DNA of 64,000 nt. Origin: Psammoneis japonica. Taxonomy: Eukaryota. Positions 3,380 to 47,510 of this stretch are shown piece after piece. The stretch spans positions 124,001 through 188,000 of the forward strand of contig QPGO01000037.1 in NCBI GenBank assembly GCA_008632985.1. Direction: 5' to 3'. Within the stretch, counting starts at the first letter, position 1. Every line of letters begins with the position of its first letter. The notes below the pieces were generated by a model that did not search any database, was not told the origin of the DNA, and saw only the letters and a list, made by a program, of their open reading frames with translations. A program made the position numbers and the translations under genes.

Positions 3380-4030
3380 GCAATGGTGGAGTGTGATGTC
3401 CCACATGAGACATTTGTCTCCTTTCAGCAAATTGTGGAGTTGTCAACAGCAGGTCAATTTGGCACTTTGGTTGTTGTCCATTGGGTCAAAGGACACAAAG
3501 ATGATGAAACACCCTGTGAATCTCTGTCTCTTCCTGCCAAACCAAATGTCCAAGCTGACAAGCAAGCTGGTGACTGGGTGCCAAGGCCTGTGCCCTGGGG
3601 ACACTCTTCTGGCTCTGTGCGTGCTTCACTGCTCTGCCAACTCATCTGTTCAAGATTCTTCTGTCTCTTTCAAACACAAGTTGGTTCTTTTTTGTGTGAC
3701 CCCACCCACCCTCCTGATTGCTGTGCACATTGTCAACATCACATGAAGCGTGGAGATTGCACACTCCAGTGCACCCCCATGACATGGCCTGGCATCAAAA
3801 CTTCCTCCAAGGCTTCTTGTGCAAGAAGTGCAGCCCTGGTTTGACTCACTTTTGCTGTCTGCTCTGGAGTGTTGGTTTTGTGAGGAGATGATTTACACTG
3901 GTGATCTTCGCTGCAGTGTCCTCAAGAACATGCTCCATTCTCAGGACAGAGTTGGCTGGCATCCTCTGTTTGGTGGTCAATTTTTGTCCTGTCAGAAGAG
4001 CAACGCCCAAGAGCAATGAATGTGAAGGTC
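3380..4030 (+). mobile_element. Decayed non-LTR retrotransposon fragment (RNase H and C-terminal region)
   Basis: VVVHWVKGHKDD...SLSLPAKPNVQADKQA matches the RNase H HWVKGHQD...N..AD..A motif. It is followed by SQDRVGWHPLFGGQF, resembling the Q..IGW..F..G motif of diatom LINE C-termini. Confidence 0.65.
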
Positions 4031-6129
4031 CTCCCTGCAAACTGGCAGCAGTGACAACATGTGTGTGCTGGTGAGAAAGAACAGGAGAAGCAGATCTTGG
4101 AGAGACAGACAGATTGGCTCATCTGTCCAGGTCTGTCCATCACCCACAGAGTTGGTGTGGCTGCTGACTCCCTCCCCTGACATGTGATGTCTTGTGAGAC
4201 AATGCAAGGAGAGGTGCAACAGTTTGCCATGAAAAGCAGCCTTGCCAATGATGCAAGGCAGCACAAAAACCAGATGAGACCAGAAAAGGTCAGGCAGAAC
4301 ATGTTGGAAAGAGGCAGGTCACAAGGGGCAACATTTTTGCCAAAAACTTCCCAACGGCAGCAGGGCGTGCATGTGCCTGTCCATCTGAGTCTTTGACAAA
4401 AAAAGTCGAAGGCAGCTCCCAACAAATCTTCTGGATGAATCAAGTCTTGTGCCAAAGGACAATTTTGTCAATCTCCACAAATGATCAACCACAAAGAGAG
4501 ATTCTGGCAAGTCAAACTGTCACCAAAACTCATCGGGAGAGATGGGGCCAAAAAATGGAAATCCACCATGACAAATGATGCAGCAAAAATGAAGCAACAG
4601 CAGCCCACTGGACAAACCAATGCTTCTGCCACATGTTGCTTCACCCCTGAAAAACACAGTGGGCAAACAAAACATGTGGCAAAAGTGCTCAATGTCAGAA
4701 GAACATTGGTGTGTCGCAGGTGAGCATCAAATGACACATGCAAATCATGGTCATCAAGTGAGGCATCTTGGTCAAAGCCAGAATGCTCAACAGGCTTGCA
4801 CACTTTTGCTGAGCCACAGGGATCCTGCCATCTCCTGATCATCAAATGCAGGGTTGTCATTGGCAACGGTCAACAGGTCAGGAGCACCAGGAAAGCTGCT
4901 GTTCAACACCACAGCCATCCTTCCAGCAAAGGAAAGAGGTGTTGCAGCAGAAGGCAATGAGACTTGGTGGCCCTCTTTCAGGCTTGTTCCACTTCCATTG
5001 GTCTTGTGCACTTCCTTGTTGCTGCATTTGACCACCCCTCAACAAGCAAATGCAGTGTCATCATCAACAATGGAGGCCAACATGCCAATGGTGGGGACAG
5101 TGGAGGAACAAGATGGCAGAGCAGAAGGCAACCACATTTGGTGCAAGAGCAAACCACTGGAGAAAGCAACATGTTGCTGGCCCCTGAAAAGCTCACTGGA
5201 CAAATGGAGGGCAACCTGGAGTGACTCGATGTTAGAAGAAGGTGGGTGCTTGGCAGGTGAGCATCCAGCGATGTGCAAATCTTGGTCACCCAACAATTCA
5301 CCACTGGAAGAGTTGGAATGCTTGTCAATCTTGTGCACTTCCTCTGCACCACATTGCTCCTTTTCTAAAAAGAAACAGTCAAGATCAACAGACAAGACAG
5401 AGACAGTCATGGCCCAGTGAAGCAGTCACATTGAGGGCCACTTTTTTAAAGAGCAGTGCAACAGGAAATGCATTGACAGGGTCTCTGGTTGCCGGCAGGA
5501 TGTGCATGTTAAGAACCCACTCCTTCAACAATGCAACAACACCATTTTTGGATTGCACATGTTTCTTGGAGCAATCAAAAAACTGATCCAGCCCAAGAAC
5601 AATGCTGCCATGGTGAGTGTCACTCAGCTGAGGCTTTGCAGCTTCATGGTGATGAGATGATGTGGTTGGAACCCTGCACCATCTTCTCAAGGGAGACAAC
5701 AACTGCCTGTTTTGGCACTTGATTTGCCATGGTTGAAGTGAGCAAAAAGGTTGGTCATGCAGGCACAGAGAGTCAGCATTGACCTGCAGCTAAAATTTTG
5801 TTGTGGTTCCATGAAAAAAGAAACATTTTCAGGAACAAAAATGTGGCTGGCTCAATCAGCTCACAAACCAAACAAATCAAAAAAAAGAATTGCAATGCAA
5901 AGGAGTGTGGAACCTCACAAGATCACAACCTGTCAGAGCAGCAACAGCCAAGTCAGCAATCAACATGATCCTTCCCACAAATGGGTGACAATGGAGAACA
6001 TGTGTGCCAGAGAGAAAAAGTGGGAAGAGGCAGATCTCAGAGAGATTTGCTCTGACATCTAAAGAGAGCCTGGCTGGCTGTCATCTGCAAACAGTCTGAT
6101 TGCACATGGCACACCCAGTCAGCTGACAC

Positions 6130-6620
6130 CAACAGAGCCACTGCAAAGTCTCATTCTTGACTTTGGCCCAAGCCATGATTGTGAGCCCAGCTGCATGTCT
6201 GCAGCCTGGATGTGTGTGCATGTGCTGTGTGTGTGCACACTCAGGAGCTCTGTTGTGTGGTGCCTGCTGCTGCACAACAAGTGTGGAGGTTGTGTGTCCT
6301 TGACTCTGCTTCTCTCAGCACATCACTTTGGAGATTGTGTCAAACCAGGGAGGTGCCAGCCACCATTTTTGGCACTCTTGAGCCATGCCAGCTGGAACAA
6401 AGGGTTGGATCACTGTTCTCTCTCTTCTTCTCATTGTCAAAGCAAAACGGCTCAAAAAACACTGAGCCCACCAACACAAAGCATGGCTGCAAATCATGTG
6501 GAGCCAGTTTCAGCAGCAGCAAACAAGCACAGTCCTCGACAAGGACAAGTGCCACTTGCCATGTCATTGCTTTCATGACTTGTGCTCTCAACACAGTTCT
6601 TTTTCATGCTTCTTTCCCAT
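6130..6620 (+). repeat. Dispersed direct repeat, copy 1 (possible LTR)
   Basis: Shares blocks with 9945-10420: agccactgcaaa, gcccagctgc/catgtctgca, ctcagcacatcactttggagattgtg, tgtcattgctttcatgacttg. Confidence 0.75.
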
Positions 6621-6899
6621 CAACCCATTGCACGTTGGATCAATGCAGGGTCATTTGTTCAGCCCAACAAAACTGTGAGTGCAGCTGCTGTGCAGGCAGG
6701 GAACAGCAATGTCTCCAACAACAGAGTGTTTGGAAAATGAAGGGACTCAATTGCAAACAAGAGACCCCGCAGCATCTTGGGCATTTTTGCATGGACTCTC
6801 CTTGTTGATGAGCTGACATTGACATTTTGAGCAGGCTTTCTGGTTGTGCAGTGGAGATGGTCCAGGTGAGAATGCATCAGCTCCACATTGAATCTGTTT

Positions 6900-7860
6900 C
6901 TGAGCATTGTGCTCTGCATGGCAGCCCTTTCTTGCAAATGGCACTGGCAAATTGCGCTCATTGGAGCCAACAAGAAAGACTGCAGAAATGGAGGCACAGC
7001 ACCATGGCTCTATTTCCCATGTTTTCCAACACCATCACCATGTGTCTCACCCCATTCTTCCCATTGCAGGTTTGGTTTGTTGCCATTTAAAGCAGACATT
7101 GTTGGTGTTTGCAGGTGCCAAGGGCTTGGGTCCAACACTGAAGCCTTCCAATGACAATTCCTGAATCACTGTGTCCCACACTAATCTGCAAACATTGCAA
7201 ATCCAACCTTGTTTTTACAGCATCTATGTGCATGGCATGCGTCTGATGTCATTGACCAAATGGGTCCAGGCCATTCCCTTCCAAAGCATCCCAGTGTGAA
7301 TTTTCCCAAAGCCCCATTCTTTGGTGTTGTGTCCACTCCCACTTCTGTTCTTTTGCAGGTGGTTTCTTTTCCAAAGCAGCACTCAGTTCTTTTTGAGACA
7401 AAAAAGTGCCTTGCATGGGATGATGAACTGGGATTGGATTCAGAATTGACAAGTCTTGCAAATCCACCATCTCAGCCTCAAATGTCTCATCAGTGGTGGC
7501 ACAGGTGGCAGTTGCAGTGCCCAAAGAAAGCCACTTGAGGATCAAGCAGAAGAGCTTCCTGCAGTCTGAAGAGCAGCCAATGCTGCTGCACTGGAGGATT
7601 CTTCAGTCTCGAGAATGCTCAAGTCCTTGCCACCTTCTTGTTTGTTCACATTTGTTTCCTGATTGAGCTTGGAATCATTGTCTCTGCTTTTAGATTTTGA
7701 GTTGTAATCACTGCTTTTGGCTTCGGGGTTGTTGATTGCAGCTGCTGGAGCTGGAGCTGCATTGCACAGGTTTTGCAAAGCATTGGTGAGCTGCTCAAGG
7801 ATCTCATTGTTGTTGAGATCTTGAACACCAGCAACACAACTTTTCACAGCAGGCACCCCA
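6900..7860 (-). mobile_element. Possible decayed Ty1/copia (CoDi-like) gag remnant
   Basis: Minus strand near 7060-6980 reads like KNG..TW.WCWKH...WC.H...C across frameshifts (CoDi gag zinc-knuckle-like). Upstream QLTNALQNL..APAPAAAINNP is gag-like. Confidence 0.3.
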
Positions 7861-8630
7861 TTTTGTGGATTGCCAACAAAATCTCAATCAAGTTGCAGGG
7901 GTGCTGTGGCTGTGCATTGCCAGATGTTGGTTTTGAAACTTTGCTTCTCCTCACAGCTGCTGATGAGTTTGCAGCAGTCACTGATGGTGCATTGTCCTCC
8001 AATGCCACCCAAAAATGTCAAAACACATCACCCTTTGCCAAGCTTTGGACACCACAAAAAATGCTCATGGCCAATGACAAGAGCTTCAATGTTGTTCAGT
8101 TCAACAACACACCCCACTCAACAAACAATGAACAGCAGCACCGCTGTCATCAAAATTTGGTCCTCACAAAGCACCACCAGCACATTGCCACATGCAAGAA
8201 ACAACTGAAACACAGTTTTAAAGTGTGTGTTGATGCGTTTGGTCAAAGATTCAATGTTTTGAGGAGGACAGGTCAACAGATGAACAGAGAAAGGAATTGC
8301 AAAACACTGCAATTTTTGGCTGCCTGGAACACAGACTTTGACTTGAATCGCAGCACTGAATGTCCACTTTTGTAGTTTCAAGTTGTGTGGTTTGCACTCA
8401 AAATTAATCTTCAAAAGCATTTCCCTGCTCATTGCTCCCAAAGGGCAGAGACGTTGAAATCAAACAAATGCACCACTCTCATGCATGTCCAAAGAGGAGT
8501 GGACAATGTCAAACATGAATGGGAGCTGTCTTCTTGTGCCACAGAGAGGACCATTTGTCAACCAAGATTGCCCCACAGGCAAACTTTTCCTTTCTGCAAT
8601 GGCAACTCTCACACAGCCAAAAATGAAGTG

Positions 8631-9560
8631 AAAAAGGCACTTGATGACAGTGGCACAAGATTGAGGGATTTGAAAATCTGCAAGTCCCACAGTCACAACT
8701 TTTCCCAACTTGTTCCATTGAGGAGTCTGCCACGCAGCTGCAGCACTTTTTTGGCTGCACATGCTTTTTGGCCATGTCACCATCTCCATGTTTTGCCTTG
8801 TTCATCAACATTGTGTTGAGTGGAAGCTGCAACTCTGACACTTTTCCACACCTTGGCTTGCACATTTCTCATTTCCATTTCAAAACTTGTTGCTGTGCAT
8901 GCACGCCACTTTGTTGTGCAGAGCTCATTTTTGTCATTGTTGCAAAAGGCACTTGACAGTGGCACAACATTGAGGGATTTGAAGATCTGCAAGTCCCACA
9001 GTCACAACTTTTTCCCAACTTGTTTCTCATTGAGGAGTCTGCCGCTCAGCTGCAGCACTTTTTTGCTGCACATGCTTTTTTGGCCATGCCACCATCTCCA
9101 TGGGGTTTTGCCTTCATCAACATTGTGTTGAGTGGAAGCTGCAACTTTGACACTTTTTCACACCCCAGCTGGCACATTTCTTGTTTCCATTTCAAAACTT
9201 GTTGCTGTGCATGCACCACCACTTTCTTGTTGTGCAGAGCTCATTGTTGTAAAAAAGGCACTTGACAGCAGTGGCACAAGATTGAGGGATTTAAAAATCT
9301 GCAAGTCCCACAGTCACAACTTTTCCCAACTTGTTTCACTGAGGAGTCTGTCACTCAGCTGCAGCACTTTTTTGGCTGCACATGCTTTTTTGGCCATGCC
9401 ACCATCTCCATGGTTTTGCCTTCATCAACATTGTGTTGAGTGGAAGCTGCAACTCTGACACTTTTCCACACCTTGGCTGGCACATTTCTTGTTTCCATTT
9501 CAAAACTTGTTGCTGTGCATGCACTGCCACTTTGTTGTGCAGAGCTCATTTTTGTCATTG
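8631..9560. repeat. Tandem array of three units of about 310 bp
   Basis: Units start near 8631, 8944 and 9253 with aaaaggcacttga..cagtggcacaa.attgagggattt..a.atctgcaagtcccacagtcacaac. They give three repeated MEAATLTLFHT ORFs. Confidence 0.95.
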
Positions 9561-9944
9561 TTGTTTTGTGCTCTTGTTGCAGATTGGGGGGTGTCTTTGT
9601 GAGCTGGCTTTTGCTGACATGCTGTTGTTTCCAAATGACCCCCCACTGACAAACTCCTCAAACATGGAAGACCCCTCTTGACATTTGCAACGGCACTTGT
9701 TGGTGAACAAAAAAGGTGGCAACAATCTTGGTGGCTGGCAACTTGCTGCTAGCCTCAGTGTGCATGCTTGCCAGAGAGTGATTTTGTTTGTTCATTTGTT
9801 CAAGTTAGACAGACAGACAGAGAAAGAAAGTGCAGCAGCAAGTGATGGACAAGAGCTGCAGGCACAAAGTCTGTGCCCCCCACTGGAAGACATTTTTCAG
9901 CGCTGTGACAGCTTTTCCTTTGTCAAGGATGGCAGCTTGCTTCT

Positions 9945-10420
9945 GACAAAGCCACTGCAAAAGTCATGTTGCTTCCCCTGATGTCAGCCCAAGCCCATGG
10001 TTGTGTGCCCAGCTGCTGCATGTCTGCATCTTGAGTGTGTGCACACTGCTTGCTGGTGGCACTGCGAGTGACAGCCACGTTCTGACACACTCTCTGCTTT
10101 TTGACTGTGTGCTGCAGTGCTCAGCACATCACTTTGGAGATTGTGCCAAGCCATGCAGGCACCAGATGCTGTTCCTTTTGAGACTCAAGAGACACACTCC
10201 TCTTGCAGAAACACCAAAAACTTCTCTCCTCGAGCCTCAAAAGAGGAGGCGTGTCATCACAGCAGCCCCCCCCAAGACAGGAACCAGTTCGAGCAGCAGC
10301 AGCAGCATGCAAACATGGTGCTCAATGAGGACAAGCGCCACTCGCCACTCGCTTTGTCATTGCTTTCATGACTTGCACTCCTCGTCGGCTACACGGTTCT
10401 TTCTCGTGCTTCTTTCGCAC
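9945..10420 (+). repeat. Dispersed direct repeat, copy 2 (possible LTR)
   Basis: Homologous to 6130-6620; its right end retains CpG. Confidence 0.75.
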
Positions 10421-10632
10421 ACATGTTGTGGACCCGTGACGACGGCGATGCGCGGAACATCACGTTTGGTCAACACGAAAGGCGCGTTTCTTCAGTCCCG
10501 CGAAACCGAGAACGCGGCTGGAAGCGGGGGAAATGGCGGGGTCGACATTCGACATTTGCCGAAGGCCGTCACAAACTAAACAACGTTGTTGAAACGTCAC
10601 ACCTGGCACCACCAACGCCCAGCACCTAAACC

Positions 10633-18524: not shown

Positions 18525-18789
18525 GTTTGCCGCAGCACTTTGCTTTCCAGCAACGACGTGTCAATGAAACGCACAAGAGGGTTTGCTAGAAAGTAAGAGA
18601 AGGTTTGGAAGATGTTCTCAAGATCCAAGATTGTGCTGATGATTCCACAGAAGATCGCGAGTTCCAGATTTGCGAAGCTCTTTACCTCGTACAAATAATA
18701 ACGTACAGTTAGTAGGAACTCCTACTGTACCGTAGCGAACGCGCAGCGCCCTGGTACAAAACGTCTGCCCTCCACCCTAATCCCGTAAA

Positions 18790-20520
18790 GGGACATCTCA
18801 CCAAGAGGAGGTTTGCTTCATGCTTTTGAACTTCATTCAGCGCCACGGCCACTCACCACCAATCCAAAACACGATGGGTCCATCTCTTTCAACTGGTGGA
18901 AAGGGATTGACAGAAGAGACAAGAAAGGTCTCTTTCAGGCAGAGCCGTCACTCTCTTGACGTTGATGATGTGAAATGCGCGACAAGAGCTCGGGAAAGTG
19001 TCGGCTCGAGTCCACACCACAGGAGGATCAAAATCAAAGAGAGGTCAAAAAGATGACAAAACAAAAAATGAGCCAAGCCTGTCTTAGAGAGATGTGATGA
19101 AACTGTGAAAAGACTCTCCGGCTTTGTCCGAACAGCTCCCACAGAAAGGAGCGATCTTTTTGCCACCAATCTTTTCCAAATCAGACATTGCCAGCACAAC
19201 CACAGGGCAGGTGCACTGTGCCACATGGACCATCAGAATTGCAAGCACATTTGAAAAGCAGTGGCTGATTTCACTGCAGCAGCAAAAAGAGAGGAAATGG
19301 CAGAACCCCAACACCACCGCGAGAGGCACAGACAAGACGATGTGCCACAGGAGTGTGCGAGCAAATGTCGACAGCACCGACAAGCAGCCGCCCAAGGTGG
19401 CATTTGGCAGTGTTCAGGACAGGCCCAACCCCTCCATTGCTTTCTGTCACTTCTTGCTCAACAGCATCCAGCAACGTTGGAGTGCACAAAGCCCCAGCCA
19501 GCAGAATGGACACCAAAAAGAGAAAAAAGAAAAAAAGAGAGTTGTTGGCTGTGCTTGCCAATGCAGTTGCCCACCCAAGGACAGAGACTGCAAGAAAAAG
19601 AAAAAAACAACTGAGTGAAATGCACGAAGATGTCGTCATTTGCAAAAGCAAGAGAGCCCAACAACAAGGTGTTTGTGCTGCTGACCAAATTTAGAAACAC
19701 AGACATTGCATTTGCTGCAGTGCTTGGATCTTGCTTGGCAGTCTGCAAATTTGCACCACGTTGAACAATGTCAGCATCCCAGTGGCCTGCCCACATGGGT
19801 GTTTCATCATTTGGAAGAGGTGGTTCAGTGGAGGACAACATGGGCGGCACTCCTGTGATTTCTGGATCCATGGCAGCACTTGCCTTCCCCACAATGACAA
19901 TGTGGCAAGGATGCTCAACACAATGCTCCACTGCAGAGTGTCAAAGACACCAAATGGAAGTCACTGTGTCCTGTCTCTTTTCCAAGAACTGACTTTTTCT
20001 TGTGGATGACTGGCGGGCCATGCACAATGATGACGACAACCTGGCCCACACTGCTGCTGACCTCACACCATGTCTTTTTTCATGATTTTCAAAGTGTTGA
20101 GAGGAAGTGTCTGAGTTCCTGAACATCTCTGTGGTGGCCTTGTGTGTTGTTGAGCTGCTTGGTGGGGAAAGATGCTCCATCTCTGGCGGATGAAGCTGCT
20201 CTCCCGTGCACTGCAACAGATCAAGAGGGACCTGGATCCGGCCACGTTTGCACTCTCCACCATCAAGGAAGGTTCCCAAATGCTGATCAAGAAAGCAGTT
20301 GTCAATTGTAAATGCAGAATTGCTTTGGGCAGAAGCTGTCCAGACATGCCCCCCATGGCAAAGGCAGGGAGCGAGGCATCTCGACAGCAAACAGCAAACT
20401 GTGCAAAAAATGAAAAACTGCCAAAAACCAACAAAAACTTGCCAAAAAGAGAAAAAAAGCAAGCGCCAACAAGCGCTGGCGCTCTCCGCTGACTGATGCT
20501 GTCTTCGTCTCTCTGCTGCC
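18790..20520. other. CpG/TpA-depleted hypermutated domain (unclassified repeat remnant)
   Basis: TpA nearly absent; CpG partly retained at the left edge and scarce centrally; no credible ORF. Confidence 0.8.
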
Positions 20521-20982
20521 AACGCGACAATGATGCCGTCATTTATCGTCGGTTCTCGGTAAAGAATCGTCTCTTTTTTGTATTCAGCGCGTTCAATTCT
20601 TTCCAGGGTGGCAGTCATTTTGAGATTTTGTTTCGTTCTGAAAACAAGTGCGTGCTTTTTGGGTCGTAATAGGCCTGCGGTGTTGGACGAACGAATGTGA
20701 TTAGGAGTCCACATTATTTGTGCAGAGCAAAGGGAGGAAGACATGGTATGGGATAAACGCTCACTAGTTCCGAAACTAGTCGTCTGCCAGAGATCTTCGT
20801 CTGCACAAGCACAGGTCTAGGCCTGTTACAAGTACAGTACGAAAATTCTATAACAAACCAACTGATCCTGGTGAACTGAAGAGGAGAACATTCTCCCCAG
20901 TGATTGGGTTTGATATTATTGTTAAAGAACCTACAATTCATAATGTGGATATACAACATGCTACCATATGCAGACAGGGACA

Positions 20983-23136: not shown

Positions 23137-23559
23137 TGTTCTTGAGGATATTTTAAAGGTTGTTTTAGGGTAAGTAAGAGGTGAAAGGTTGTTGGATCAA
23201 CACTTTTCGGAATTGTGACAGCCATTCTGTTGCCAAATTCAGGCTTGACGCAATCCTGGTGAGTCGTTCTTTATTGGGGGCGAGCCACGTTTGGTTTCAT
23301 TCGCGGATAGATGGGGCGGAAGGGTCGTGCATAACAAAGCCCAAGACATATGTATGTCTCGATGTATGACTCGGTCATTTTTTTGTCCATTCTGCTGTGT
23401 CGCGTGCAGGCACGCACACAAGCATCGCTCATCATTGACCAACATCGACAGAAAAAAAGGTCGTACTGTGTAGACAAAAACATTAAAAAAATGTCAAAGG
23501 GTGTTAGATTCAGCGAGGCGAAGGTTCGCCGAACGGTTTTGCCACTCGTGGTTCCAACA

Positions 23560-25430
23560 ATTTGGCAAATTGATGTTTTTCAAGTCTTTGTCTTTCCAGA
23601 TTTTGTGCTGCAGTCACAGTTGGCAATGCAAGCTTGACAGAGATGATGAGAAAAAACAACACAGGAGAGAGGCGCTGCCACACAAAAGAGCAGGAAGACA
23701 GAGCTCAGAGAGAAAGCAGCAGCTGGCGCTGCCTCTGCAGAGCTTCTTTGGGGGAAATGACAAGAGTTGAGCTCAGCACATCAGGTTTGGCAACTTGTTG
23801 AGAATGAGGGCACAACACCTCAAAGAGCTGGTGTGGAGGCTTTGCTCTCTCTCAAAGAAGTGGGCAGCCGCTGAACAAAAAAGCTCTCTCTGGCTTGTCA
23901 CAAGCAGGGCTGGTGCAGAGATGGCAGCAGCGCTCATCATGCAAAAAGCACTCTTGGGGGTTTCTGGAGCCCTGGCAGCATGCTGCTCAGTGCTCTGTGA
24001 GTGGCTGCAAGCCACAAAGCAAACAAAATGACAAAAACAATGTTGCAAGAAAATTCGCTGTGCAGACTTGGCAGCTCGTTGGTTTTTGACAACTGCGGTG
24101 TTTTTCGGCACACAGCAGCAGATCTTGAGCAGCAACAAGAGAGGCAGGCAGAGCTTCTGTGTGCTGCACCAGCTCCCAAAGTGTCAGAACCCAGAGCTGC
24201 CATGCTTTTGAGTGTGCGGCCTCTGCTGCAGCTCTCGCAAGCTTGTGGCCTCAGCACGATCCTCAGCGCTTGCTCTGGGGTTGTGTGCACTGTGCTGGAA
24301 CAAAAGGTTTCTTTCCTGGCCAGGTGGGGAGAGGGTTCTTTTTTCTCTCCTTTGCTTTGGCTGGCCAGTGCCGTGCAAGTTTTTTTCTGAACAGCTCCCT
24401 TGTCAATCAGCTGAAAGTGTGGAAGAGGGAAAAAACAGCACAGAGAGGAGAGTCTTGTGTCTGCCAAGCCTCATTTGACACACAATGTCAGTGAGTGCAC
24501 GTTGCTGGATTCAGGCAGAGAACCTCTGCTGAGAGGGGGTTTGCGGATCAGCTTTGACCTCCCTCAGTCACTCACAATTTTGTTCATTTGCCCCCACCAA
24601 ATGTCAACTTTTTTTTGTTGGTCGTCAGGGGAAACTGCCTGATTGCGCCTCTTGCTAGATTTTTTGGAATTGGGTTTTGAGTTTCTCCTGCGGAATGCAA
24701 TTTGGAGGTGGAAACGAGTGCGAGCAGTTTTCTCCATCTTTGCACTTTCACGCTCTTGAATTTTCCACCTGCCATCTTCAGACTGATGCCGGTTGTGACG
24801 GTGGAGGTGCCAAGGAGCGCAGCGCAACTCATCCGGCTTCTGTGGCAATTTCTTGATCGAATCTTTTCCAACCCCCAGCTTTCGCAAGAAAAGTCGTTTT
24901 TCATCAGGATTTGCAGGAAGACGAAACATGCCAAAGTGAGAGTGTCCAATGCCTTCGCAGACTGGATTCTCACAACAGCAAATCGCCGGTGCCGATTTGC
25001 CATTGCACTGTGGCATGTGCTTGGGTCCAAGCAGGCAATGACCCCGTCGCCCCTTTTTTTTGGCTTCCCTTTCCCATCCGTCAACCGAGGGTGCCAGCCA
25101 CGGCCATGAACAATGCAGAGCCCATGGTTTTGACAAGCTGCCAGGCAAACACAACTTTTTCCACTTGCACCCTTGCAAGTGAACTCGGTGAACGACACCA
25201 AGTCTGACGCGATGCCAAGAGCTTCTGCAAGTTGTGCCCGAGACCCAACCGAGCCAAAATCAACAGCACTCATTGCTTTCAGCAGTGAGATTGTGGACCA
25301 TGCGCAGTTTTGCCATACATCATTCATTCAACAGGACGGCAGCTGCTGTGACTTGCTCTTCGTCTCTGTCAAAAGTCATAAGAAGCATGTGATGACACTG
25401 ATGTTGATGTGCTGCAGTCTGCAGTGAAAA
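23560..25430 (-). mobile_element. Decayed DNA-transposon-like remnant with THAP-like and CxxxC..HG.G zinc finger fragments; TpA-depleted
   Basis: Minus-strand CCCENPVC...FRLPANPDEKRLFLRKL...LRCAPWH (THAP-like) and CKGASGKSC...CQNHGLCIVHGRG; strong TA depletion. Confidence 0.5.
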
Positions 25431-25810
25431 TTGAAAAATGAAAATTTAATTCAAATATAAATTTCCGGTTGTCGCCCAGTCTGTCCGTAAACAGGCCAAA
25501 ATCTTGAAAAGAAAAAAGGTCTATGATGTGCTCGTACTTGAATAAAAGATAAAATAACAGGGAGCTACGTGGAAGAAAAAAGCTGAAAGCGGTTGAACAC
25601 GCACGTACGTGTAGCTGCGTTGCGTGTACCAATCGCGTAGAAGTCTACGTGGCAGCGACGTCGGAGCCAACAATCGCATCATGCTTGTGTTGGGCGGGAT
25701 GAAGTGGCGGAAGCAACAGATCGCAACGACAACTTCCATCGCAAAATTCCACAACCATCAACAACGATTTCACAATGTGCCGTAACAATTCAAACGCAGA
25801 ACAAACAAGC

Positions 25811-30744: not shown

Positions 30745-30859
30745 CGCGACGCTCTTTTCTTCATGGCCAAAATCCAGAGAGAATTCAGAATTTTAATTTT
30801 TGGTGATGTCACGATGACATCACTTTCGTCTGATGCTAAACTCCGGGTTTTCTTTGGTG

Positions 30860-33420
30860 CATGAACACGGAGTTTGAGACATGTTCTGGTGACGACCTTG
30901 TCTTTGTCAAAGAAGTTTAGACTTGGTGAGGCACCCCAATGTCACTCTGCTCTTTGTTGGTTTTGTTTAAAAATTAAAATGTGCACACAGCTCTTCTCTG
31001 CACACGGTGTTGTTGGAGAGCAGAAGCCTTGCGAGAGCTGTTGCTTTTCTTCACATCTGTCAAAGTGCGCAAAAAGCAAAGAGAGACACGCTAAAAATGG
31101 CAAGCTTTTCATGGCCAGCTCTTGGCCCCTGATTGTCCACAGCTGCAATGCCAGAGCACATGATGCACAAATCAAGGCCCCACAGAGATTTGTGAGCAGA
31201 GCACATGATGTGTTTTCATCCCAGGTGAGAAACTTTTGGACACATCACGAGGTTTTCTACGTGTTTCTACATGAGACGTACATTTAGCACCAAAAATCTT
31301 AGTAAAAAACGAGCTCCAAGACACCAAAAATATATTTTTCCATGTCTCGAACCACAAACCACAATTCGCGCAAACCGAAAATGGCACCATGCCGTCGCCA
31401 TGAACTCGTCCATTCTCACACCAACGGATGTTGTGACTGAGAAGGCAAGAATGTCGAGACAGGTCAACAAGACAACGCTCAATGCGATGATGTGGTTGAA
31501 AAATTGATCTTTGTTTTTTGTTGTGCCTTGTGGATGGCCTTTTGACTCATGACATTTTTGATGCCTCTTTCTCTCTTCCTCAGCTTGCGAAGTGGGATTC
31601 TCATCAACGCGCCGCTCCATCTGCTTGACACCGGATGCTGACAACGAAGAATGTTTCTATGACACGTTGCTGTGATTCTTGCATGTATCGTCCGCACTTT
31701 GAGTCGTCATGGACGACGCTTTTGGGTCGCGCGACAACATCAGATTTCGCCACCGACAAGAGAATCGTCATGTGTTCGGTTTTGAGGGTGTGTGAGGATA
31801 AAGAATCTCAGATGCAAGTGTGACAGTTTCATCATTGTAAAGTAAAACAATGCCATTGGCGACATCTTGGTGTTGCAGCCATTTTGTTTTATTCTAAGAT
31901 AGAACTGGTCATTTTGAGCGGCGAAATTTTGTCAATGTTTCATCTTTAACTCTGCTTGGGCACATCAAATCACACAATGACCAGACACACATTGAACTTT
32001 GACGCTGCCATTTCAATCCTATTGTTTTATTCACTCAAGCATCCCACACAGGTTGACAAATCAGTCGATCTTTGAAATGGCCGATCGCGCAAAAAAATCA
32101 CGTGCGAAGTCAGTTCCCCGATTTTTCTTGTGCAACACAGAGTTAGAACGCGTTCTTTTTGGCATGAGCTCTTTATACAATGAATGATGCATGCATTCTT
32201 TCAAAGTAGTCAGATTCGGTGAAAGAAACAGCAGAACAGTCTCTCAAATGCACCAGAATGACAACAACGAGCAGACAGCTGTCAGTTTCACTCCAAAAAA
32301 TGCCGCTTTCGAGATGGCGCTTTTCTTGTGCGCACCCTTCAACCAATGAGAACAATGGCTGGCTTTTCAAAATAAACATGTCTGTGGAAGAAGAAACGAA
32401 AAATCAGGGGAAAGTCCAGTCAGATTGCTCGCACAAAAAGCACGGCGACGGAAAAGGACAGACGAAACGTCTCACCTCCGCAGCGCGTTTCTACTGGATG
32501 AAAACACATCACATGTGTGCTCCTGCTCACAAAATGTGGCTCAGCAAGAAAAAGCACATGTCACATGATGATGCTGGACTGATCCTGCTGCATGTGGCCT
32601 GTTCCAGCCCCAGCAGGTGATGAGACATCCATCATGTGAAAGGCCAATTTTCTGTGCAGTTCAGCACATCAAACTCCTTCAACTGTGATCGCTTCGAAAA
32701 TCGAAAGGCAAGTGCACACCCGAAAATGCATGTGAAGTGCACACTTGCCCTTCAATTTGGAAAAACAGGTTTTGAAAGAGTTAATGTGCCAAATGCAAAA
32801 ATGGGCAAACATGGGAATCGAACCTGTTCGCATCACCTGGAGCTGGAAGAGGCAAGAAAGCACAAAGCTTTGGAGCAGCAGAGAAAGGTGTGTGCAAATG
32901 CCGCCAGCTGGGGCCTTTTACATGAGCCACCCAAAAGTGCATAAAATGCCAGAAAATGTCAAAATTGCAAGTTTTGTGTGGTTGTTGTGGTTGCAGAGGT
33001 GTGCTCTTTTTGCTCCCTTTGTTGTCGTTTGAGAGCGCCAGCACAGCAACAAGAAGGAAAACACCAGCTCAGCAGGCCCAGTGTGGAACAGCCAAGCCAA
33101 CTTTGTATTTGGGAAGCACACCTTTCATGCTTTTTGCCACTGTGTAAAAAACAGCAGTGAAGCGCAGTGCCCATGCACAGCACAGGCTGCGGCAGGACAA
33201 AAAAAGAGAGAGCTTCACAAAAGAAGGGGCAGGAAAGCCCAGGCTCTTTGGAAGAGACAACGGTGTGGCTTTTTCTCATGTCTGCTGAAGCAACAGGGTC
33301 TGCCATGAATGAATGGTGATTCAAGCAAACAATTTGCTGCACAATTGGTTCTGTCATGGCAGGAGAGCGAAACGAGAAAAACGAGGTGCACCAGCGAAGC
33401 ACCAACCATGCGTTGGATTG
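30860..33420. other. Patchy CpG/TpA-depleted hypermutated domain (unclassified repeat remnant)
   Basis: TA-poor throughout with CpG partly retained (about 31340-31800 and 32060-32490); no credible ORF. Confidence 0.7.
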
Positions 33421-34073
33421 GCAGTTGAAAGCCGTTGACTGAACGTTGGGAAGGGCTCTGTTTATGCTATTGTATGTGCGAATTTCTCTATTTCTATGAT
33501 ACAAAATCAAGCGCTTTATACATAATCAAAGTAAAGATGAATTTATATTTATTTTTAAGTTGGAATATCTGAATACCATTCTTGTGGGTTTAATAATTGC
33601 GCGAACAGCGTCGTAACAGTCTTGTAGATTTCTACACAATCATTCCCACACCTCGTGAAGTCGAATGAAAGCTGAAGTGCACCCACTCGAGCGTTGATAT
33701 CACTTGTTTGTGTTTGGTTGACGCATTTCACTCGGAGACGATTTTTGTGTCAATTCTTTCGCTGCTTTCGGTCGCCTCACTGTTATTTTAATCGGCAGAT
33801 CAAGTTGTAAGTGATACGACGCTGGAACGCGTCGAAAAAATTGTTGCCGGAGAAGAGAGATTGATTGGTTGATCCTGCCGTGTTAGAATTTTTTGCGGGA
33901 ACGACGTTTCACGTAGCTCGTGGTACATTTCCACGTAGGATGACGTTGTTGTGAGAATGGCCTTCTCATCACCTCCTCCTTTTGTTCTTGTTTCTAACGC
34001 TTTCGGTTCTCTGTTGTAATTTTTCTTCCGCAGTCTGCTTTTAGTACTTTTAAGGAAAGCGAAACGTGTTCCT

Positions 34074-43862: not shown

Positions 43863-44594
43863 TTAGATCCACGTTGACGCACGCTTCTCTCGCATAGCCT
43901 GAGATACCTTCCTCATTGCTTCCCGTTCTGAGAGTAGGAAGTATCGTCCAGTGTTGGGATCCTTCTTCACAAAGCGTCCAACATGCGACACAAGATAGCG
44001 TGCCGTCTCGTAGTTTTTGTGTGTCTTTTGCGCTTTTGTGATAGTCTTCTGCTTGGTGAAACGCGCAGAGTCTTGGCGTTTACTCATGATCACGCGGCGA
44101 TAAAGCCTGTTGCCCTCGTTATTATTGGATCTGCCACCACGCCCAACAAGAATGTCATGGTCTGTGGGTTCTGTAACATAAACACGACGGCTTTTGCTTG
44201 GCGAAAATTTGGGATCCTTTGGCCACAACCAACGAAAGTTTTGGAATAGCATTGCTTTGAAACTCTTGCTGGTGACTGCAAGTAGAAGTCGGGAGCGCAC
44301 ATCGGTAAACTCTACAATGAGGCTTAAGGTGTCATTAGGGAGCTCCGTGATTGAAAATCGGTTGCAGGAGGATTTGTCGGAGGAATCAATGTTGGAGAAA
44401 TCAAAAAGTTTCAGGATTTCATCTTCCAAATCGAGGTCATTCGGCAGGAATGAAAGGGCGAAGTCATCAACATCTTCCATTGGCAGTGGTTCAAAAGGAT
44501 CGGAAAGTTCCATTGTCAATCGTCGATCACTGCGATATCGTAAACTTCTGCTGGCAAAATTGTCATGGTCAAGCCTCGACTCAACTTTGTTCAT
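43863..44594 (-). CDS. F-box-like plus DUF6824 domain protein
   Basis: ITELPNDTLSLIVEFTDVRSRLLLAVTSKSF (F-box-like); PTDHDILVGRGGRSNNNEGNRLYR...GRFVKK...AMRKVSQAMRE (DUF6824). Confidence 0.82.
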   Translation of the reverse strand: MNKVESRLDHDNFASRSLRYRSDRRLTMELSDPFEPLPMEDVDDFALSFLPNDLDLEDEILKLFDFSNIDSSDKSSCNRFSITELPNDTLSLIVEFTDVRSRLLLAVTSKSFKAMLFQNFRWLWPKDPKFSPSKSRRVYVTEPTDHDILVGRGGRSNNNEGNRLYRRVIMSKRQDSARFTKQKTITKAQKTHKNYETARYLVSHVGRFVKKDPNTGRYFLLSEREAMRKVSQAMREKRASTWI

Positions 44595-44679
44595 TGAGTA
44601 TCTTCAACACCTTGTATGTTTACATGATTGACCCGCATGTAGAAAAGTACAATTCTTCCTACTCGCCAATCGTGCAACA

Positions 44680-47510
44680 TTTGGCACACTCATGGTGGGT
44701 GAACGACGAACAATGCACAACAACGCAGTGTGCATGAAGCAGCTCAATTTTTGCACATTCAGCTGTGGCCATGTTGATCCAATCACCTGGTCATGGTGCC
44801 TTCACCATCTGTTGATCAAGAAGATCCAGGCTTCCCCCTTCTTGGATTGCTTTGTTGAACAGGGGAGAAAGAGTGGGCCCTGGTCAAGGCACCCCCCTCC
44901 ATTCAAAAGAGGAGAGGGCTCAATCTTGGCAGCACTTGCTCATGACAATGTGGCAATGAAGCCTGTTGTCCTCATCATTGTCAGAGATCTCTGCACCCAC
45001 CATGCCCAACAAGGGTGTCATGGTCAGCGGGGGCTCTCTGCAGAACATCACACTCAAGAAGATGGCTTCTTTTGCTTGGGGGGCGAGAATTTGGGATCCT
45101 CTTTTGGCAGCAACCAATGAAAGTTTTGGAACAGCATCACTTTGAAGCTCTTGCTGGTGACTGCAAGTGGAAGTCAGGAGCACACATCAACAAACTCTGC
45201 AGTGTGAGGCTCAAGCTGTTGTCACGGAGCTCCTAGATGGACAGAAAAGCCAGCTGCAGGAAGGGGGTTTTTGTCCTCAGAGGAGTTTGTGTCAGAGAAA
45301 TCAAAGTTTTTAAGACGTGCCACTTCCAAATCAAGAGGTCATTTGGCAGGAATGAAAGGCCAAAGTTTTTGACATCATCCTCCATTTTTGGCAGCTGAAA
45401 AGGGCCAGAGAGCTCTGTTGTCAGCACGTCACATCGACCACTTCAGCGTGGCAAGCTTCTGCTGGAAAAGTGTTGTGTGGTGTCAACAATCAAGCCTCAA
45501 CTCAATTGTGCTGATGTGAGAATCTTCAACATGTGGTGCACATTTGCATGATTTGCCCACATGCAGAGCAGCACAGTTCTTCCCACATGAGGGTTTGTTT
45601 GAAAGCACAAATGCCAGCAGCATGAGAGTCGACACAAAAAACTCACTCCCAACCAACAGCTGCTCACTCTCCATCTCAACATTCCCGCAGCTTGTTTGGG
45701 TGCAATGAAAAAAGGAGATGCCCACCCACTCCTTTTGAGATAAAGACACCAAGAGGTTTTTCCGCTGCACTGTTGCAAGGAAGGCAAAAATGCCCACACC
45801 AAATGCATTGCTTGGTGGCAAGAAGGACAGTGTGGAGGAGGAGGCCAGAGGGCAGGGTCAGTGAAAATGACCTTGCCACCACAAGCAGGGGCTTTGAGTT
45901 TCTGTTGTGGAAGTGTGCTGGAGAGCAGCTGGGGTTAACAGAAAGGAAAAATTTTGTGAGTTGATGAGAAGGCAGGGGCAAGACAAGCAAGCACATCATG
46001 GATTAGAAGAAAGCAGTCTGGCCCCAGTGTTTGAGCTTGTTGCTGGAAACAAAGGGCACACATGTGCCTTGAGAAACCAGCACAGAGAGGCAGAACAAGG
46101 GAGAGATGGACAAATGCAGAGATTTGGGAAAAAACAACAACTCAAAGTGCCAAGAAAAATGGAGCATTGGACAAGCTGAGCAAAGCGCCAAGAGTTGCTT
46201 TCAAACCAAAGAACTCCATCAGTTTTCTTTTCATGCAAAATGCCCAAGCAACAGAGCCACAATAAAAAACAACACAAGAAGCAAAATGAAGCAGAGTTGA
46301 GAGCCAATGAAGTGGGCCCATGGTTGGAGAAAAGTTGTGCTGTTTGCGCGATGGCCACAACTGCAGCTGACAATTAAAGTGGCATCATCAACAGCATGGG
46401 TTGATGCAGCAACCAAAAATGAGCTGTTTGCCAAAAACAAATTGTTCAGACAAAACATCTCTTTTGCTGCAGAGAAGTTGCCCCGTGTGTGCTTGAAACA
46501 AGCAAGAGTTTGCTGCATGTGGGATGCTGGGCGGGGGCAGCACAAGATTTGGGTGTTTGGCTTGTTTAAAAACCTGTCTGGAGAGCTCAGAAGGTGACAT
46601 GCTGGACACCCAGTGTGGGGTCAAGTGGCAATGCCTGTACATTCATGAAAAAAGAAATCTGCTCTTCAGCGCAGATGAGCTGTGTGAAACAAGAAAGATT
46701 TTGCTGCACACACAGCATCAGGGGGGCCTCTCTGATGACATCAAAAATGGTGCACGGGGGGGGGGGGCATTTTTGCATTGAAAATTGGTTGGGGAAATGC
46801 TGCTTCAAATGGCATCACAGCCACATTTTTTTCTGCAATGGAGCTGTCTGAACAGCCCCAGGGAGCCCAGCAGGTGTGCGCGGAGGCGGCTTGTTTCTGT
46901 GAAGTTCTTGCTCCCCAAGTGTGCGCGCATGTCCTCCAGACACATGCTCCTCCATCTTGTTTTGTTTCTCTTGCACACACAACACACACGGCTCTCATCT
47001 GTGAGTGCCGTGCACTCCTCTGTTTCCTGTGGGTGTGTTTGCCATGCCTCTTTTTCTTGGGTGTGCACACCACATCTATCACAAAACGACAAACAAATGG
47101 GTTCTCATGTTGACAGTGAAAAGGTTTTGCAAAAGCAAGTGCATTGCTGTTTTCTCCCTTCTCCCCCCTCCTGTCGATTTGTTCTCTCGTGTGGCAGCAT
47201 TGTTCGCCGTGGAGAGCCAGCCAGCACGGCAGAGTTTTCTTGCTTCAACACCGCTGCCTTGGCACACTTGGAAGTTCGATTCTCCAGAGCCTGATGGCAC
47301 CTTTCCAAGGAGTGACTGGAGTATGAATGAGGAGAACACTCCAGTCAGTCCTCTCCTGTCTAGCAGCAGAGCGTGAGGTGGGCCCCTCTCTATCTGCCCC
47401 AGGAGAGAGCGCTGAGCAGAGACACACCCCTGCTGAAGACGACATGCGTCAGCGGTCGCACACTGACGCGCGCAGAATCGCGTGGTGGACGCTGATGAGG
47501 ACCGATCGAA
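44680..47510. other. CpG/TpA-depleted hypermutated domain
   Basis: TA and CG nearly absent; CpG returns near 47440 before TpA does. Confidence 0.9.
44920..45590 (-). pseudogene. Hypermutated tandem duplicate of the adjacent F-box/DUF6824 gene
   Basis: Colinear with about 44070-44662 (e.g. ctcttgctggtgactgcaagt, ggcaggaatgaaagg, cttccaaatc); many indels; CpG and TpA replaced by TG/CA. Confidence 0.92.

What the first reader, a model, noticed from the sequence alone, without database searches (positions are those of the whole stretch)
24600..25430. TpA loss is decoupled from CpG loss
Seen: in this stretch of about 800 bp CpG is still common (gagcgcagcgc, aatcgccggtgccg, ccccgtcgcc) while I find only about three TpA. 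Similar CpG-retaining, TpA-poor zones occur at about 10380-10620, 18790-19150, 31340-31800 and 47400-47515, mostly at domain edges. Inference: TpA mutation is a separate mechanism that acts earlier or spreads further than 5mC-driven CpG decay, so it is not a by-product of methylation decay.
Basis: partly seen in the sequence, partly recalled or inferred. Interest (0 to 1): 0.85.

Follow-up and report, generated by a model that had tools for sequence, protein, structure and literature searches.

The report
TpA hypermutation outruns CpG decay
In this alga, most likely a diatom, silenced junk DNA first loses every TA step through a fast, targeted A-to-G mutation process and only later loses its CG steps, so the flagged stretch is a young transposon fragment caught between the two stages.

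Summary
In 24600-25430 there are 3 TpA (52 expected) and 33 CpG (51 expected). No background window of that size has fewer than 13 TpA.

The window, from an ochrophyte alga that is most likely a diatom, holds six domains where TpA and CpG were converted to TpG/CpA. The TpA+CpG loss (0.082) balances the CpA+TpG gain (0.078). Each CpG-depleted tract lies inside a TpA-depleted tract: 2850 bp are TpA-only and 16 bp CpG-only.

The flagged zone is a separate unit. It is the N-terminal part of a PIF/Harbinger-type transposase, on the minus strand, cut off at about 24685. A sister copy about 94% identical appears in public-run contigs. Of 26 listed differences, 15 are sister TA against window CA/TG and 5 are sister CG against window TG/CA. 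TpA loss was therefore complete while most CpG remained.

TpA loss hits both strands independently and prefers RTA over YTA about 3.5-fold. CpG survivors show no such preference. In the older core, CpG changes still differ between the window and the run.

The one precedent I found is a 2026 preprint on TpA-only hypermutation in Bigelowiella natans, which mentions neither CpG nor diatoms.

The parts
24623..25315 (.). TpA-only zone, the core of the finding: TpA 1, CpG 31 in 693 bp
   Evidence: Two-state HMM segmentation run separately for TpA and CpG. TpA-free gap from 24656 to 25316.
24564..25256 (-). Decayed reading frame for the N-terminal Cys-rich domain of a PIF/Harbinger-type transposase. 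It has 0 Tyr in 230 codons.
   Evidence: 75 homologues with E down to 2.8e-18. Full-length ones carry DDE_Tnp_4 and HTH_Tnp_4. Alignment A1. All 75 homologues have at least 1.2% Tyr. tblastn finds this family only here in the window.
24685..24686 (.). Left junction of the transposon fragment with the older decayed DNA. The step in CpG density falls here.
   Evidence: Contigs of the sister copy in X1 and X2 stop matching at 24685 and continue with unlike sequence (table 7). CpG per 100 bp rises from 0-4 to 3-6 at about 24600-24700.
23506..24622 (.). Older part of the same domain, poor in both TpA and CpG. The HMM CpG-depleted segment 23548-24622 has TpA 0 and CpG 15 in 1075 bp.
   Evidence: Seven of 8 listed differences between the window and run X1 here are CpG against TpG/CpA.
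25316..25525 (.). TpA-retaining stretch to the right of the zone, with TpA at background density or above. It is probably the terminal, upstream part of the same repeat, and the last 35 bp or so are multi-copy.
   Evidence: TpA counts per 100 bp. Summed contig depth of 204 in bin 25491-25607, and three contigs diverging at 25522-25526.
1..10576 (.). TpA-depleted domain D1 (TpA 30, CpG 73). The nested CpG-depleted part is 1-10230 and the TpA-only edge is 10231-10576.
   Evidence: A repeat unit at 6116-6873 matches 9930-10673; the edge copy has CpG where the core copy has TG/CA.
18787..20543 (.). TpA-depleted domain D2. The nested CpG-depleted part is 19390-20463 and the TpA-only edge is 18787-19389.
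32208..33462 (.). TpA-depleted domain D4, the weakest one. The nested CpG-depleted part is 32487-33367. The region 30750-32200 to its left is partly TpA-poor.
44661..47526 (.). TpA-depleted domain D5. The nested CpG-depleted part is 44725-46878 and the TpA-only edge is 46879-47526.
62972..64000 (.). TpA- and CpG-depleted domain D6, running off the window end (TpA 11, of which 8 are YTAR; CpG 6).
43866..44603 (-). Intact F-box + DUF6824 gene (copy A), the unmutated reference for the direction of change.
   Evidence: Pfam DUF6824 E 7e-14, F-box E 2e-4.
44930..45629 (-). Decayed tandem paralogue (copy B) of that gene inside D5. Every aligned TpA and most aligned CpG of copy A read TG/CA here.
   Evidence: Alignments. 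No Pfam family detected in any frame.

Best explanation
Two different mutation processes act on silenced selfish or duplicated DNA in this alga, and they run at very different speeds.

Process 1 is a targeted, DNA-level hypermutation. It changes the A of TpA to G on either strand, so TpA becomes TpG or CpA. It prefers RTA over YTA, is near-saturating and has sharp borders. The enzyme is inferred, not shown; an adenine deaminase acting on DNA is the leading candidate.

Process 2 is the slower CpG-to-TpG/CpA decay. It is most likely deamination of 5-methylcytosine in methylated repeats (inferred). It follows Process 1 and is still segregating as polymorphism.

The flagged stretch is a young, truncated copy of a PIF/Harbinger-type transposon lying next to an older decayed repeat. 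Process 1 has run to completion in it, and Process 2 has only begun.
For: Shown directly:

1. Dinucleotide balance. In the domain cores TpA falls from 0.0409 to 0.0032 and CpG from 0.0536 to 0.0091. CpA+TpG rises by 0.078, against a combined loss of 0.082. GC is unchanged.

2. Direction from a gene and its decayed copy. Copy A is an intact F-box/DUF6824 gene. Against copy B, TpA in A aligns with CA 10, TG 6, TA 0 and other 5. CpG in A aligns with CA 14, TG 8, CG 2 and other 8. In 376 well-aligned columns all 11 TpA and 14 of 16 CpG are converted.

3. Sister copy of the zone in public-run contigs. It has 37 substitutions over about 660 bp, of which 26 were listed. Sister TA against window CA/TG: 15. 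Sister CG against window TG/CA: 5. Window CG against sister TG: 1. Other: 5.

4. Protein-level direction. The window copy has 0 Tyr in 230 codons, while all 75 homologues have at least 1.2% Tyr. At residues 80, 84 and 105 the homologues have Y or F and the sister has Y, but the window has H or C.

5. Nesting. TpA-only DNA totals 2850 bp and CpG-only DNA 16 bp.

6. Both strands, at random. CA and TG outcomes are intermixed: 8 runs observed, 8.2 expected.

7. Flank rule. Survival is 1.2% at RTAY, 5.7% at mixed sites and 29% at YTAR (chi-square 77, p 2e-17). The geometric mean of the two extremes, 6.0%, matches the mixed class, as expected if the two strands are hit independently. CpG survivors lack this pattern.

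8. CpG decay is ongoing. Seven of 8 listed window-versus-X1 differences in the older core are CpG against TpG/CpA.

9. The zone is read-supported. X1 contigs match it with 0 differences (records 3-6).

From the literature (preprint read): in B. natans mutation-accumulation lines, 230 of 231 mutations in two integrated viral regions are A-to-G or T-to-C, and the text says these GC-biased mutations all fall on TpA. The rate there is about 1000 times the genome baseline.
Against: 1. At residue 30 the sister has Y where 14 of 17 homologues have C (the other 3 have a gap), so at least one sister TpA is derived. Not all 15 differences need to be changes in the window lineage.
2. Only 26 of the 37 substitutions were listed.
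3. Methylation was not measured, so '5mC-driven' is an inference.
4. The TpA-free tract stops at 25316, about 200 bp inside what seems to be the same repeat. Targeting is therefore not simply one copy at a time.
5. The TpA-only zones at 18787-19389 and 24623-25315 adjoin promoters. Lack of methylation there, rather than youth, could explain the retained CpG.
6. Seven metagenome loci carrying the same transposase family show normal TpA (O/E 0.48-0.91), so the process is not general for this family.
8. Run X1 may be the data the window was assembled from, so it is not independent of the assembly.
Confidence: 0.7

Rival explanations
1. Position, not age. The TpA process covers the whole silenced domain, but CpG methylation stops short of the domain edge near active genes. 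Edge CpGs are then simply unmethylated and never decay. The decoupling would be spatial, not temporal.
For: TpA-only zones sit at one edge of each domain. Two of them, 18787-19389 and 24623-25315, adjoin the 5' ends of genes at 18560(-) and about 25790(+). The edge zone 10231-10576 has CpG at 92 per kb, above the background of about 54 per kb and like an unmethylated island.
Against: In the flagged zone the step in CpG density coincides with a junction between two sequence units at 24685. Against its sister, the zone shows 5 CpG losses and 1 change in the opposite direction, so its CpGs are already decaying faster than other sites, which show 5 other changes in about 660 bp. This rival does not exclude the best explanation, because both say the two processes are separate.
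Confidence: 0.2
2. One enzyme, two substrates. A single DNA deaminase, for example an ADAT2-like enzyme able to deaminate both A and C, attacks TpA efficiently and CpG less efficiently. CpG loss would then be the slow arm of the same machine, not methylation decay.
For: Both losses occupy the same domains, both end in TpG/CpA, and both hit either strand. The B. natans preprint cites ADAT2 enzymes reported to edit both A and C in DNA (I read only the preprint's statement, not the cited papers).
Against: Flank dependence differs. RTA is favoured for TpA, while for CpG the trend is none or the opposite. CpG changes still segregate in the old core long after TpA is exhausted. In B. natans, 230 of 231 hypermutations in the viral regions are A-to-G or T-to-C, with essentially no C-to-T. 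Metagenome relatives of the transposon show CpG depletion (O/E 0.3-0.6) with normal TpA, so CpG decay occurs without the TpA process.
Confidence: 0.08
3. Nothing special. The TpA scarcity reflects local base composition, coding constraint, an intrinsically TpA-poor element, or an assembly or base-calling artefact.
For: TpA is under-represented throughout this window (O/E 0.42), and real coding ORFs have TpA O/E 0.38-0.68.
Against: O/E is corrected for composition. No background window comes near the zone, with a minimum of 13-14 TpA against 3. The sister copy and all 75 homologues carry TpA or Tyr. Run contigs at depth 28-47 match the zone exactly. If both strands of a palindromic site were miscalled, the consensus would be mixed and would include TA, which is not seen (inference).
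Confidence: 0.02

Closest known systems
TpA-specific hypermutation of integrated viral DNA in Bigelowiella natans (Mettrop et al., bioRxiv 10.64898/2026.01.13.699255). I read the abstract, Results and Discussion, plus term searches; supplements were not seen.
   Same: The change is the same: TpA to TpG or CpA on either strand, with an AT-to-GC bias. It is confined to sharply bounded regions of selfish or foreign DNA. Its long-term footprint is TpA depletion with CpA+TpG gain. In B. natans the TpA-poor coding sequences are enriched in DDE endonuclease and reverse-transcriptase domains.
   Different: The host is a stramenopile, most likely a diatom, not a rhizarian. The targets seen here are a DNA-transposon fragment, a tandem gene duplicate and unidentifiable repeats, not giant-virus or virophage inserts. 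Depletion is near total here (O/E about 0.03-0.06), against Rho 0.45 in the B. natans NCLDV region. Here it is accompanied by, and precedes, CpG decay, and it shows an RTA over YTA preference. The preprint's main text contains no mention of CpG, diatoms, or flanking context. No mutation rate was measured here.
Repeat-induced point mutation (RIP) of Neurospora and other ascomycetes
   Same: It is a near-saturating, dinucleotide-specific transition hypermutation. It degrades repeated or duplicated DNA inside sharp borders, acts on both strands, and is later joined by DNA methylation.
   Different: The chemistry and direction are opposite. RIP turns CpA into TpA (C to T), so it creates TpA and lowers GC. 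Here TpA is destroyed (A to G) and GC is unchanged. In this window only one member of the tandem gene pair is mutated. RIP details are from general knowledge and from the listing of PMC7296669.
CpG decay by deamination of 5-methylcytosine in methylated transposons (vertebrates, plants, and diatom TE methylation; recalled)
   Same: CpG changes to TpG/CpA in the domain cores and is still polymorphic there.
   Different: This process cannot touch TpA. It is the slower of the two processes here, and it occupies only the inner part of each TpA-free domain.
ADAR-type A-to-I hyperediting of repeat RNA (metazoa)
   Same: There is a 5' neighbour preference for U/T. A weak secondary preference for A is hinted here: A-to-G at ApA 12 of 72, against CpA 5 of 55 and GpA 6 of 53.
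   Different: The changes here are fixed in DNA, on both strands and intermixed within tens of bases. They occur in a DNA transposon and in a tandem gene duplicate, neither of which passes through an RNA intermediate. ADAR preferences are as cited in the preprint and recalled.

Membership tests
TpA-specific hypermutation (B. natans type) | Changes fall on TpA and give TpG or CpA | tested here: met
   Sister copy: 15 of 26 listed differences are TA against CA/TG. Gene and pseudogene pair: all 11 TpA in 376 well-aligned columns are converted. Mass balance: 0.082 lost against 0.078 gained.
TpA-specific hypermutation (B. natans type) | Confined to bounded regions of foreign or selfish DNA | tested here: met
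   Six sharply bounded domains. One holds a PIF/Harbinger transposase fragment and one a decayed gene duplicate. The remaining domains have no recognisable Pfam domains.
TpA-specific hypermutation (B. natans type) | De novo rate orders of magnitude above the genome baseline | not testable with these tools
   Only indirect evidence: TpA is fully lost at about 1% other divergence from the sister copy. This needs mutation-accumulation or parent-offspring data.
TpA-specific hypermutation (B. natans type) | Almost no C-to-T accompanies it | tested here: inconclusive
   Cores also lost CpG. The young zone shows TpA loss with little CpG loss, which is compatible with a separate CpG process.
Fungal RIP | C-to-T at CpA, creating TpA and lowering GC | tested here: not met
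   TpA is destroyed, CpA and TpG rise, and GC is unchanged at 0.48 in both compartments.
5mC-driven CpG decay | CpG changes to TpG/CpA | tested here: met
5mC-driven CpG decay | The cytosines concerned are methylated | not testable with these tools
   No methylation data. The runs found are stored as contigs only.
RNA-level A-to-I editing fixed through retrotransposition | Changes on one strand only, in an element with an RNA intermediate | tested here: not met
   CA and TG outcomes are intermixed: 8 runs observed, 8.2 expected. The element is a DDE transposon relative. A tandem gene duplicate is also affected.
PIF/Harbinger DNA transposon (identity of the zone) | DDE_Tnp_4 transposase | tested here: not met
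   This copy holds only the N-terminal domain. Four of the 10 homologues scanned (P0127, P0130, P0143, P0146) carry DDE_Tnp_4. No DDE part is found anywhere in the window. The zone is therefore a fragment of such an element, not a whole member.
PIF/Harbinger DNA transposon (identity of the zone) | Terminal inverted repeats and a 3-bp TWA target duplication | not tested
   The left end is missing because of the truncation at 24685. The right end is placed at about 25522-25526 only from diverging contigs.

The most novel reading that the evidence does not exclude
Diatoms have a RIP-like but chemically opposite genome defence. A DNA-level adenine deamination, aimed at RTA on either strand, erases every TpA from newly silenced transposons and duplicated genes. 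This destroys all Tyr codons and many others, and it happens before CpG methylation decay takes hold. Rhizaria (Bigelowiella) show the same TpA signature, so the system would be old within the SAR supergroup. The TpA-free tract ends within about 26 bp of the end of the sister copy's contig. That contig comes from a run in which another contig joins two gene segments across a GT..AG interval. Targeting might therefore follow the transcribed part of the element, either RNA-guided or coupled to transcription.
Probability: 0.4. Interest if true: 0.85.

Novelty: new member of a known kind. Interest (0 to 1): 0.72.

Why it matters
Targeted TpA hypermutation of selfish DNA has so far been reported, in the library I could search, only once: a 2026 preprint on a chlorarachniophyte. 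Finding its footprint, far more complete, in an alga that is most likely a diatom would extend it to one of the most important groups of marine primary producers. It would also hint at an old, widespread eukaryotic genome defence based on A-to-G DNA editing.

This window adds three things that can be tested directly.
- An order of events: TpA loss first and fast, CpG decay later and slower. Together these make a two-clock system for dating repeats.
- A sequence preference: RTA over YTA, with the two strands hit independently. This constrains the enzyme.
- Evidence that a transposon fragment and a gene duplicate, not only viral inserts, are targets.

Practically, such domains contain no TAA or TAG stops and no Tyr codons. 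They therefore create long false ORFs and hide transposons from domain searches, which matters for annotating these genomes.

Tried and rejected
- **Whole-genome meta-profile:** not possible, because no genome is held for this window.
- **Pfam on six-frame read-throughs, stops as X:** D1 and D3 and D2 and D5 gave 0 families in all 24 frames. The nature of most of the depleted DNA stays unknown.
- **Word-indexed protein search with the zone's frame:** no hits at near lengths (61 candidates, none scored) or at longer lengths (209 candidates, none scored). The sister copy's protein could not be fetched. Only the exhaustive representative search worked.
- **Metagenome scan for the transposase family:** 85 pattern matches, 7 confirmed loci (two of them largely the same sequence). 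None is TpA-depleted (O/E 0.48-0.91). The pattern allowed Y or H but not C at the conserved Tyr, so some mutated copies could have been missed.
- **Sequencing runs:** no RNA holder is listed. X3 laid nothing. Run X2 is recorded as 'DNA?', so I do not use it as evidence of expression.
- **Joint 24686 to 25566 (skips 879 bp, one X1 contig, depth 23, 30 letters on the short side):** it could be an allele without the insert or a paralogue. Unresolved, and not used.
- **'Pulse then re-accumulation of TpA':** considered because D6 has more TpA (11 per kb) than CpG. Dropped because 8 of its 11 TpA are in the resistant YTAR context.
- **Tandem-repeat copies inside D1 (8629-9563):** only 2 TG/CA discordances per pair, too few to time the duplication against the hypermutation.
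- **Protein-atlas look-up:** gave only bacterial-dominated CMAS clusters and no help on taxonomy (the first try was unanswered).
- **Earlier-findings look-ups:** nothing on this genome, and only unrelated phage notes.
- **Literature searches:** no paper on TpA loss in diatom repeats. The only relevant hit was the B. natans preprint, whose supplementary tables could not be seen and may hold flanking-context data.
Full report
**1. The observation**

The stretch 24600-25430 (831 bp, GC 0.497) has 3 TpA where base composition predicts 52 (O/E 0.06). It has 33 CpG where 51 are predicted (O/E 0.64). TpA is under-represented across the whole window (O/E 0.42), but nothing in the ordinary part comes close to this:
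- Among 30,236 background windows of the same size, the fewest TpA is 14 and the median 33. CpG has a 5th percentile of 35 and a median of 44.
- With a narrower margin the TpA minimum is 13.
- The longest TpA-free gap in ordinary DNA is 227 bp (1556 gaps). The zone has gaps of 1151 and 660 bp.
- Twelve real coding ORFs have TpA O/E 0.38-0.68.

Coding constraint and GC content therefore do not explain the zone.

The zones 10380-10620 and 47400-47515 are too short to be significant alone (1.9% and 3.4% of background windows are as low). They do lie inside longer TpA-only zones.

**2. The setting**

A 500-bp profile shows six sharply bounded domains. In these, TpA and CpG both almost vanish and CpA+TpG rises to about 1.9 times expectation, while GC stays near 0.48. 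In the cores:
- TpA falls from 0.0409 to 0.0032 of dinucleotides.
- CpG falls from 0.0536 to 0.0091.
- The combined loss is 0.082 and the CpA+TpG gain is 0.078.

The domains are what ordinary sequence becomes if every TpA and CpG is turned into TpG or CpA.

The genes between the domains are eukaryotic: M1 peptidase, SRP72-like, DnaJ, an amino-acid transporter and ankyrin proteins. The best named relatives of a CMAS-type methyltransferase are diatoms and other ochrophytes, including Leptocylindrus danicus at 86% identity over 77% of the query. The organism is most likely a diatom that is not itself in the protein database. No whole genome is held for it.

**3. Direction of change**

The window contains a natural control. 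An intact F-box/DUF6824 gene lies at 43866-44603(-) (Pfam). A decayed tandem paralogue lies at 44930-45629, inside domain D5.
- TpA in the gene aligns in the paralogue with CA 10, TG 6, TA 0 and other 5.
- CpG in the gene aligns with CA 14, TG 8, CG 2 and other 8.
- In 376 well-aligned columns, all 11 TpA and 14 of 16 CpG are converted.
- A-to-G is also somewhat raised at ApA (12 of 72), against CpA (5 of 55) and GpA (6 of 53).

The domains are therefore the derived state.

**4. What the flagged zone is**

The minus-strand frame 24564-25256 has 75 homologues (E down to 2.8e-18). They share a Cys-rich N-terminal domain (alignment A1). Of the 10 homologues scanned against Pfam, four (576-836 aa) carry C-terminal DDE_Tnp_4, and three of those four also carry HTH_Tnp_4. 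The zone is thus the 5' part of a PIF/Harbinger-type transposase gene. No DDE part is present anywhere in the window.

Contigs of two public runs of the same organism were laid on 22800-26300.
- X1 contigs match the zone exactly (records 3-6, 0 differences). The TpA-free sequence is therefore present in reads at normal depth, although X1 may be the assembly's own data.
- Both runs also hold a sister copy covering 24685-25342, with 37 substitutions and 11 gap letters.
- The sister copy stops matching at 24685 and continues with unlike sequence.

That breakpoint coincides with the step in CpG density. The zone is a separate sequence unit abutting older decayed DNA.

**5. Kinetics**

Of the 26 listed differences to the sister copy:
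- 15 are sister TA against window CA or TG;
- 5 are sister CG against window TG or CA;
- 1 is window CG against sister TG;
- 5 are other changes.

At roughly 1% ordinary divergence, the window copy had already lost every TpA and only about an eighth of its CpG.

Protein-level direction agrees. The window frame has 0 Tyr in 230 codons, while all 75 homologues have at least 1.2% Tyr. The sister restores 7 Tyr. At residues 80, 84 and 105 the homologues have Y or F, where the window has H or C. One site goes the other way: at residue 30 the homologues have Cys, the window has Cys and the sister has Tyr. At least one sister TpA is therefore derived.

In the older core to the left, 7 of 8 listed differences between the window and X1 are CpG against TpG/CpA, in both directions. 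CpG decay is still segregating there, long after TpA was exhausted. At the two TpA borders (23475 and 25389) the window has CA or TG where X1 has TA. These are only two sites, but they hint that the borders are still moving.

**6. Spatial relation**

Separate two-state segmentations gave six TpA-depleted segments, each containing one CpG-depleted segment. In total 16,443 bp are depleted in both, 2850 bp in TpA only and 16 bp in CpG only.

The substantial TpA-only zones each lie at one edge of a domain:
- 10231-10576
- 18787-19389
- 24623-25315
- 32208-32486
- 46879-47526

At the D1 edge, a repeat unit carries CpG where its copy in the core has TG or CA, and both copies are TpA-free.

**7. Properties of the TpA process**

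The outcomes CA and TG are intermixed at random along the zone: 8 runs observed, 8.2 expected. TG and CA counts are similar in the cores. This points to a DNA-level process hitting either strand, not editing of one RNA strand.

Surviving TpA are strongly context-dependent relative to background density (chi-square 77, p 2e-17):
- RTAY: 3 survive of 241 expected (1.2%).
- Mixed: 23 of 403 (5.7%).
- YTAR: 39 of 135 (29%).

The geometric mean of the two extremes (6.0%) equals the mixed class. That is what independent hits on the two strands predict, with RTA about 3.5 times more susceptible than YTA.

Other observations fit this rule. All 15 sister TpA sites have a purine at -2 on at least one strand, and the only TpA left inside the zone is CTAG. 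In D6, 8 of the 11 remaining TpA are YTAR. CpG survivors show no such pattern (17%, 10% and 9%), which is a further sign of a different process.

**8. Mechanism**

Shown: two context-specific transition processes with different speed, extent and flank dependence.

Inferred:
- The TpA process is deamination of adenine in DNA (A to inosine, read as G).
- The CpG process is deamination of 5-methylcytosine in methylated repeats.

Unexplained: the TpA-free tract ends at 25316. That is about 200 bp inside what seems to be the same repeat, whose end near 25522-25526 is multi-copy, and it is close to the end of the sister contig (25342). Targeting is therefore neither simply one copy at a time nor simply domain-wide. 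Guidance by, or coupling to, the transcribed part of the element is a possibility I could not test.

**9. Comparison with what is known**

The only matching report in the searchable library is a 2026 preprint on Bigelowiella natans. I read its abstract, Results and Discussion.
- In mutation-accumulation lines, 230 of 231 mutations in two integrated viral regions are A-to-G or T-to-C, and the text says these all fall on TpA.
- The rate there is about 6e-7 per site per generation, roughly 1000 times baseline.
- TpA-poor coding sequences are enriched in DDE and reverse-transcriptase domains.
- An ADAT2-like deaminase is proposed.

Its main text does not mention CpG, diatoms or flanking context. 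Its supplementary tables could not be seen.

Fungal RIP is the functional analogue but runs in the opposite chemical direction (CpA to TpA). It therefore fails the membership test here.

Seven metagenome loci carrying the same transposase family have normal TpA. Some of them have CpG depletion. CpG decay thus occurs without the TpA process, and the TpA process is a property of the host, not of the transposon family.

**10. Verdict**

TpA loss is a separate, faster and more extensive process than CpG decay. The flagged zone is a young transposon fragment caught after the first process and early in the second.

What remains open:
- the enzyme;
- whether retained CpGs in the other edge zones reflect youth or lack of methylation;
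- how widespread the process is in this genome and in other diatoms.

The kind of process has one recent precedent in another lineage, so I rate this as a new member of a known kind. The new information is the order of events, the strand independence and the sequence preference.

Noticed in passing
window 25790-26897 (+), interval 26080-26264: The gene to the right of the zone starts with a signal peptide ending in an ...SAAFAP-like motif; its plastid-targeting meaning in heterokonts is recalled, not tested. One X2 contig joins 26079 to 26265 across a GT..AG interval of 185 bp. This looks like a spliced intron, although the run is recorded as 'DNA?'.
   Followed up: partly
window 24687-25565: One X1 contig (depth 23, 30 letters on the short side) joins 24686 directly to 25566, skipping 879 bp that include the whole transposon fragment. 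This could be an empty-site allele, which would make the insert polymorphic and young, or it could be a paralogue.
   Followed up: no
window 23475 and 25389: At both borders of the TpA-free tract the window has CA or TG where the X1 contig has TA. This hints that the edge of the hypermutated tract differs between haplotypes or strains.
   Followed up: partly
window 8629-9563: Three tandem copies of a unit of about 312 bp (85-92% identical) lie inside the fully depleted domain D1, with a few TG-against-CA discordances between copies.
   Followed up: partly
window 1-10200 and the other depleted domains: With TAA and TAG gone, almost all stops are TGA. In D1, TGA and its complement occur 223 and 271 times, against 16/16 for TAA and 8/9 for TAG. 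Long spurious ORFs appear in all six frames, which is a trap for gene callers.
   Followed up: partly
window 50751-51500, 56751-57250, 59751-60250: Short TpA-rich islands (O/E 1.15-1.31) lie between genes, the opposite extreme of the depleted domains.
   Followed up: no
window 28938-30374 vs 38888-40621, and 57137-58360 / 58795-59859 / about 62000-62700: Paralogous gene pairs or groups (DnaJ + DnaJ-X proteins; ankyrin-repeat proteins) keep normal TpA and CpG. Duplication alone does not trigger the hypermutation.
   Followed up: partly
protein P0134 (homologue of the transposase domain): It has His at the otherwise conserved Tyr of the IGYSHEGMF motif (16 of 17 homologues have Y), the same change as in the window copy. 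It may come from another TpA-mutated copy in some other organism.
   Followed up: no
window 36752-37350: An assembly gap of 599 N.
   Followed up: no
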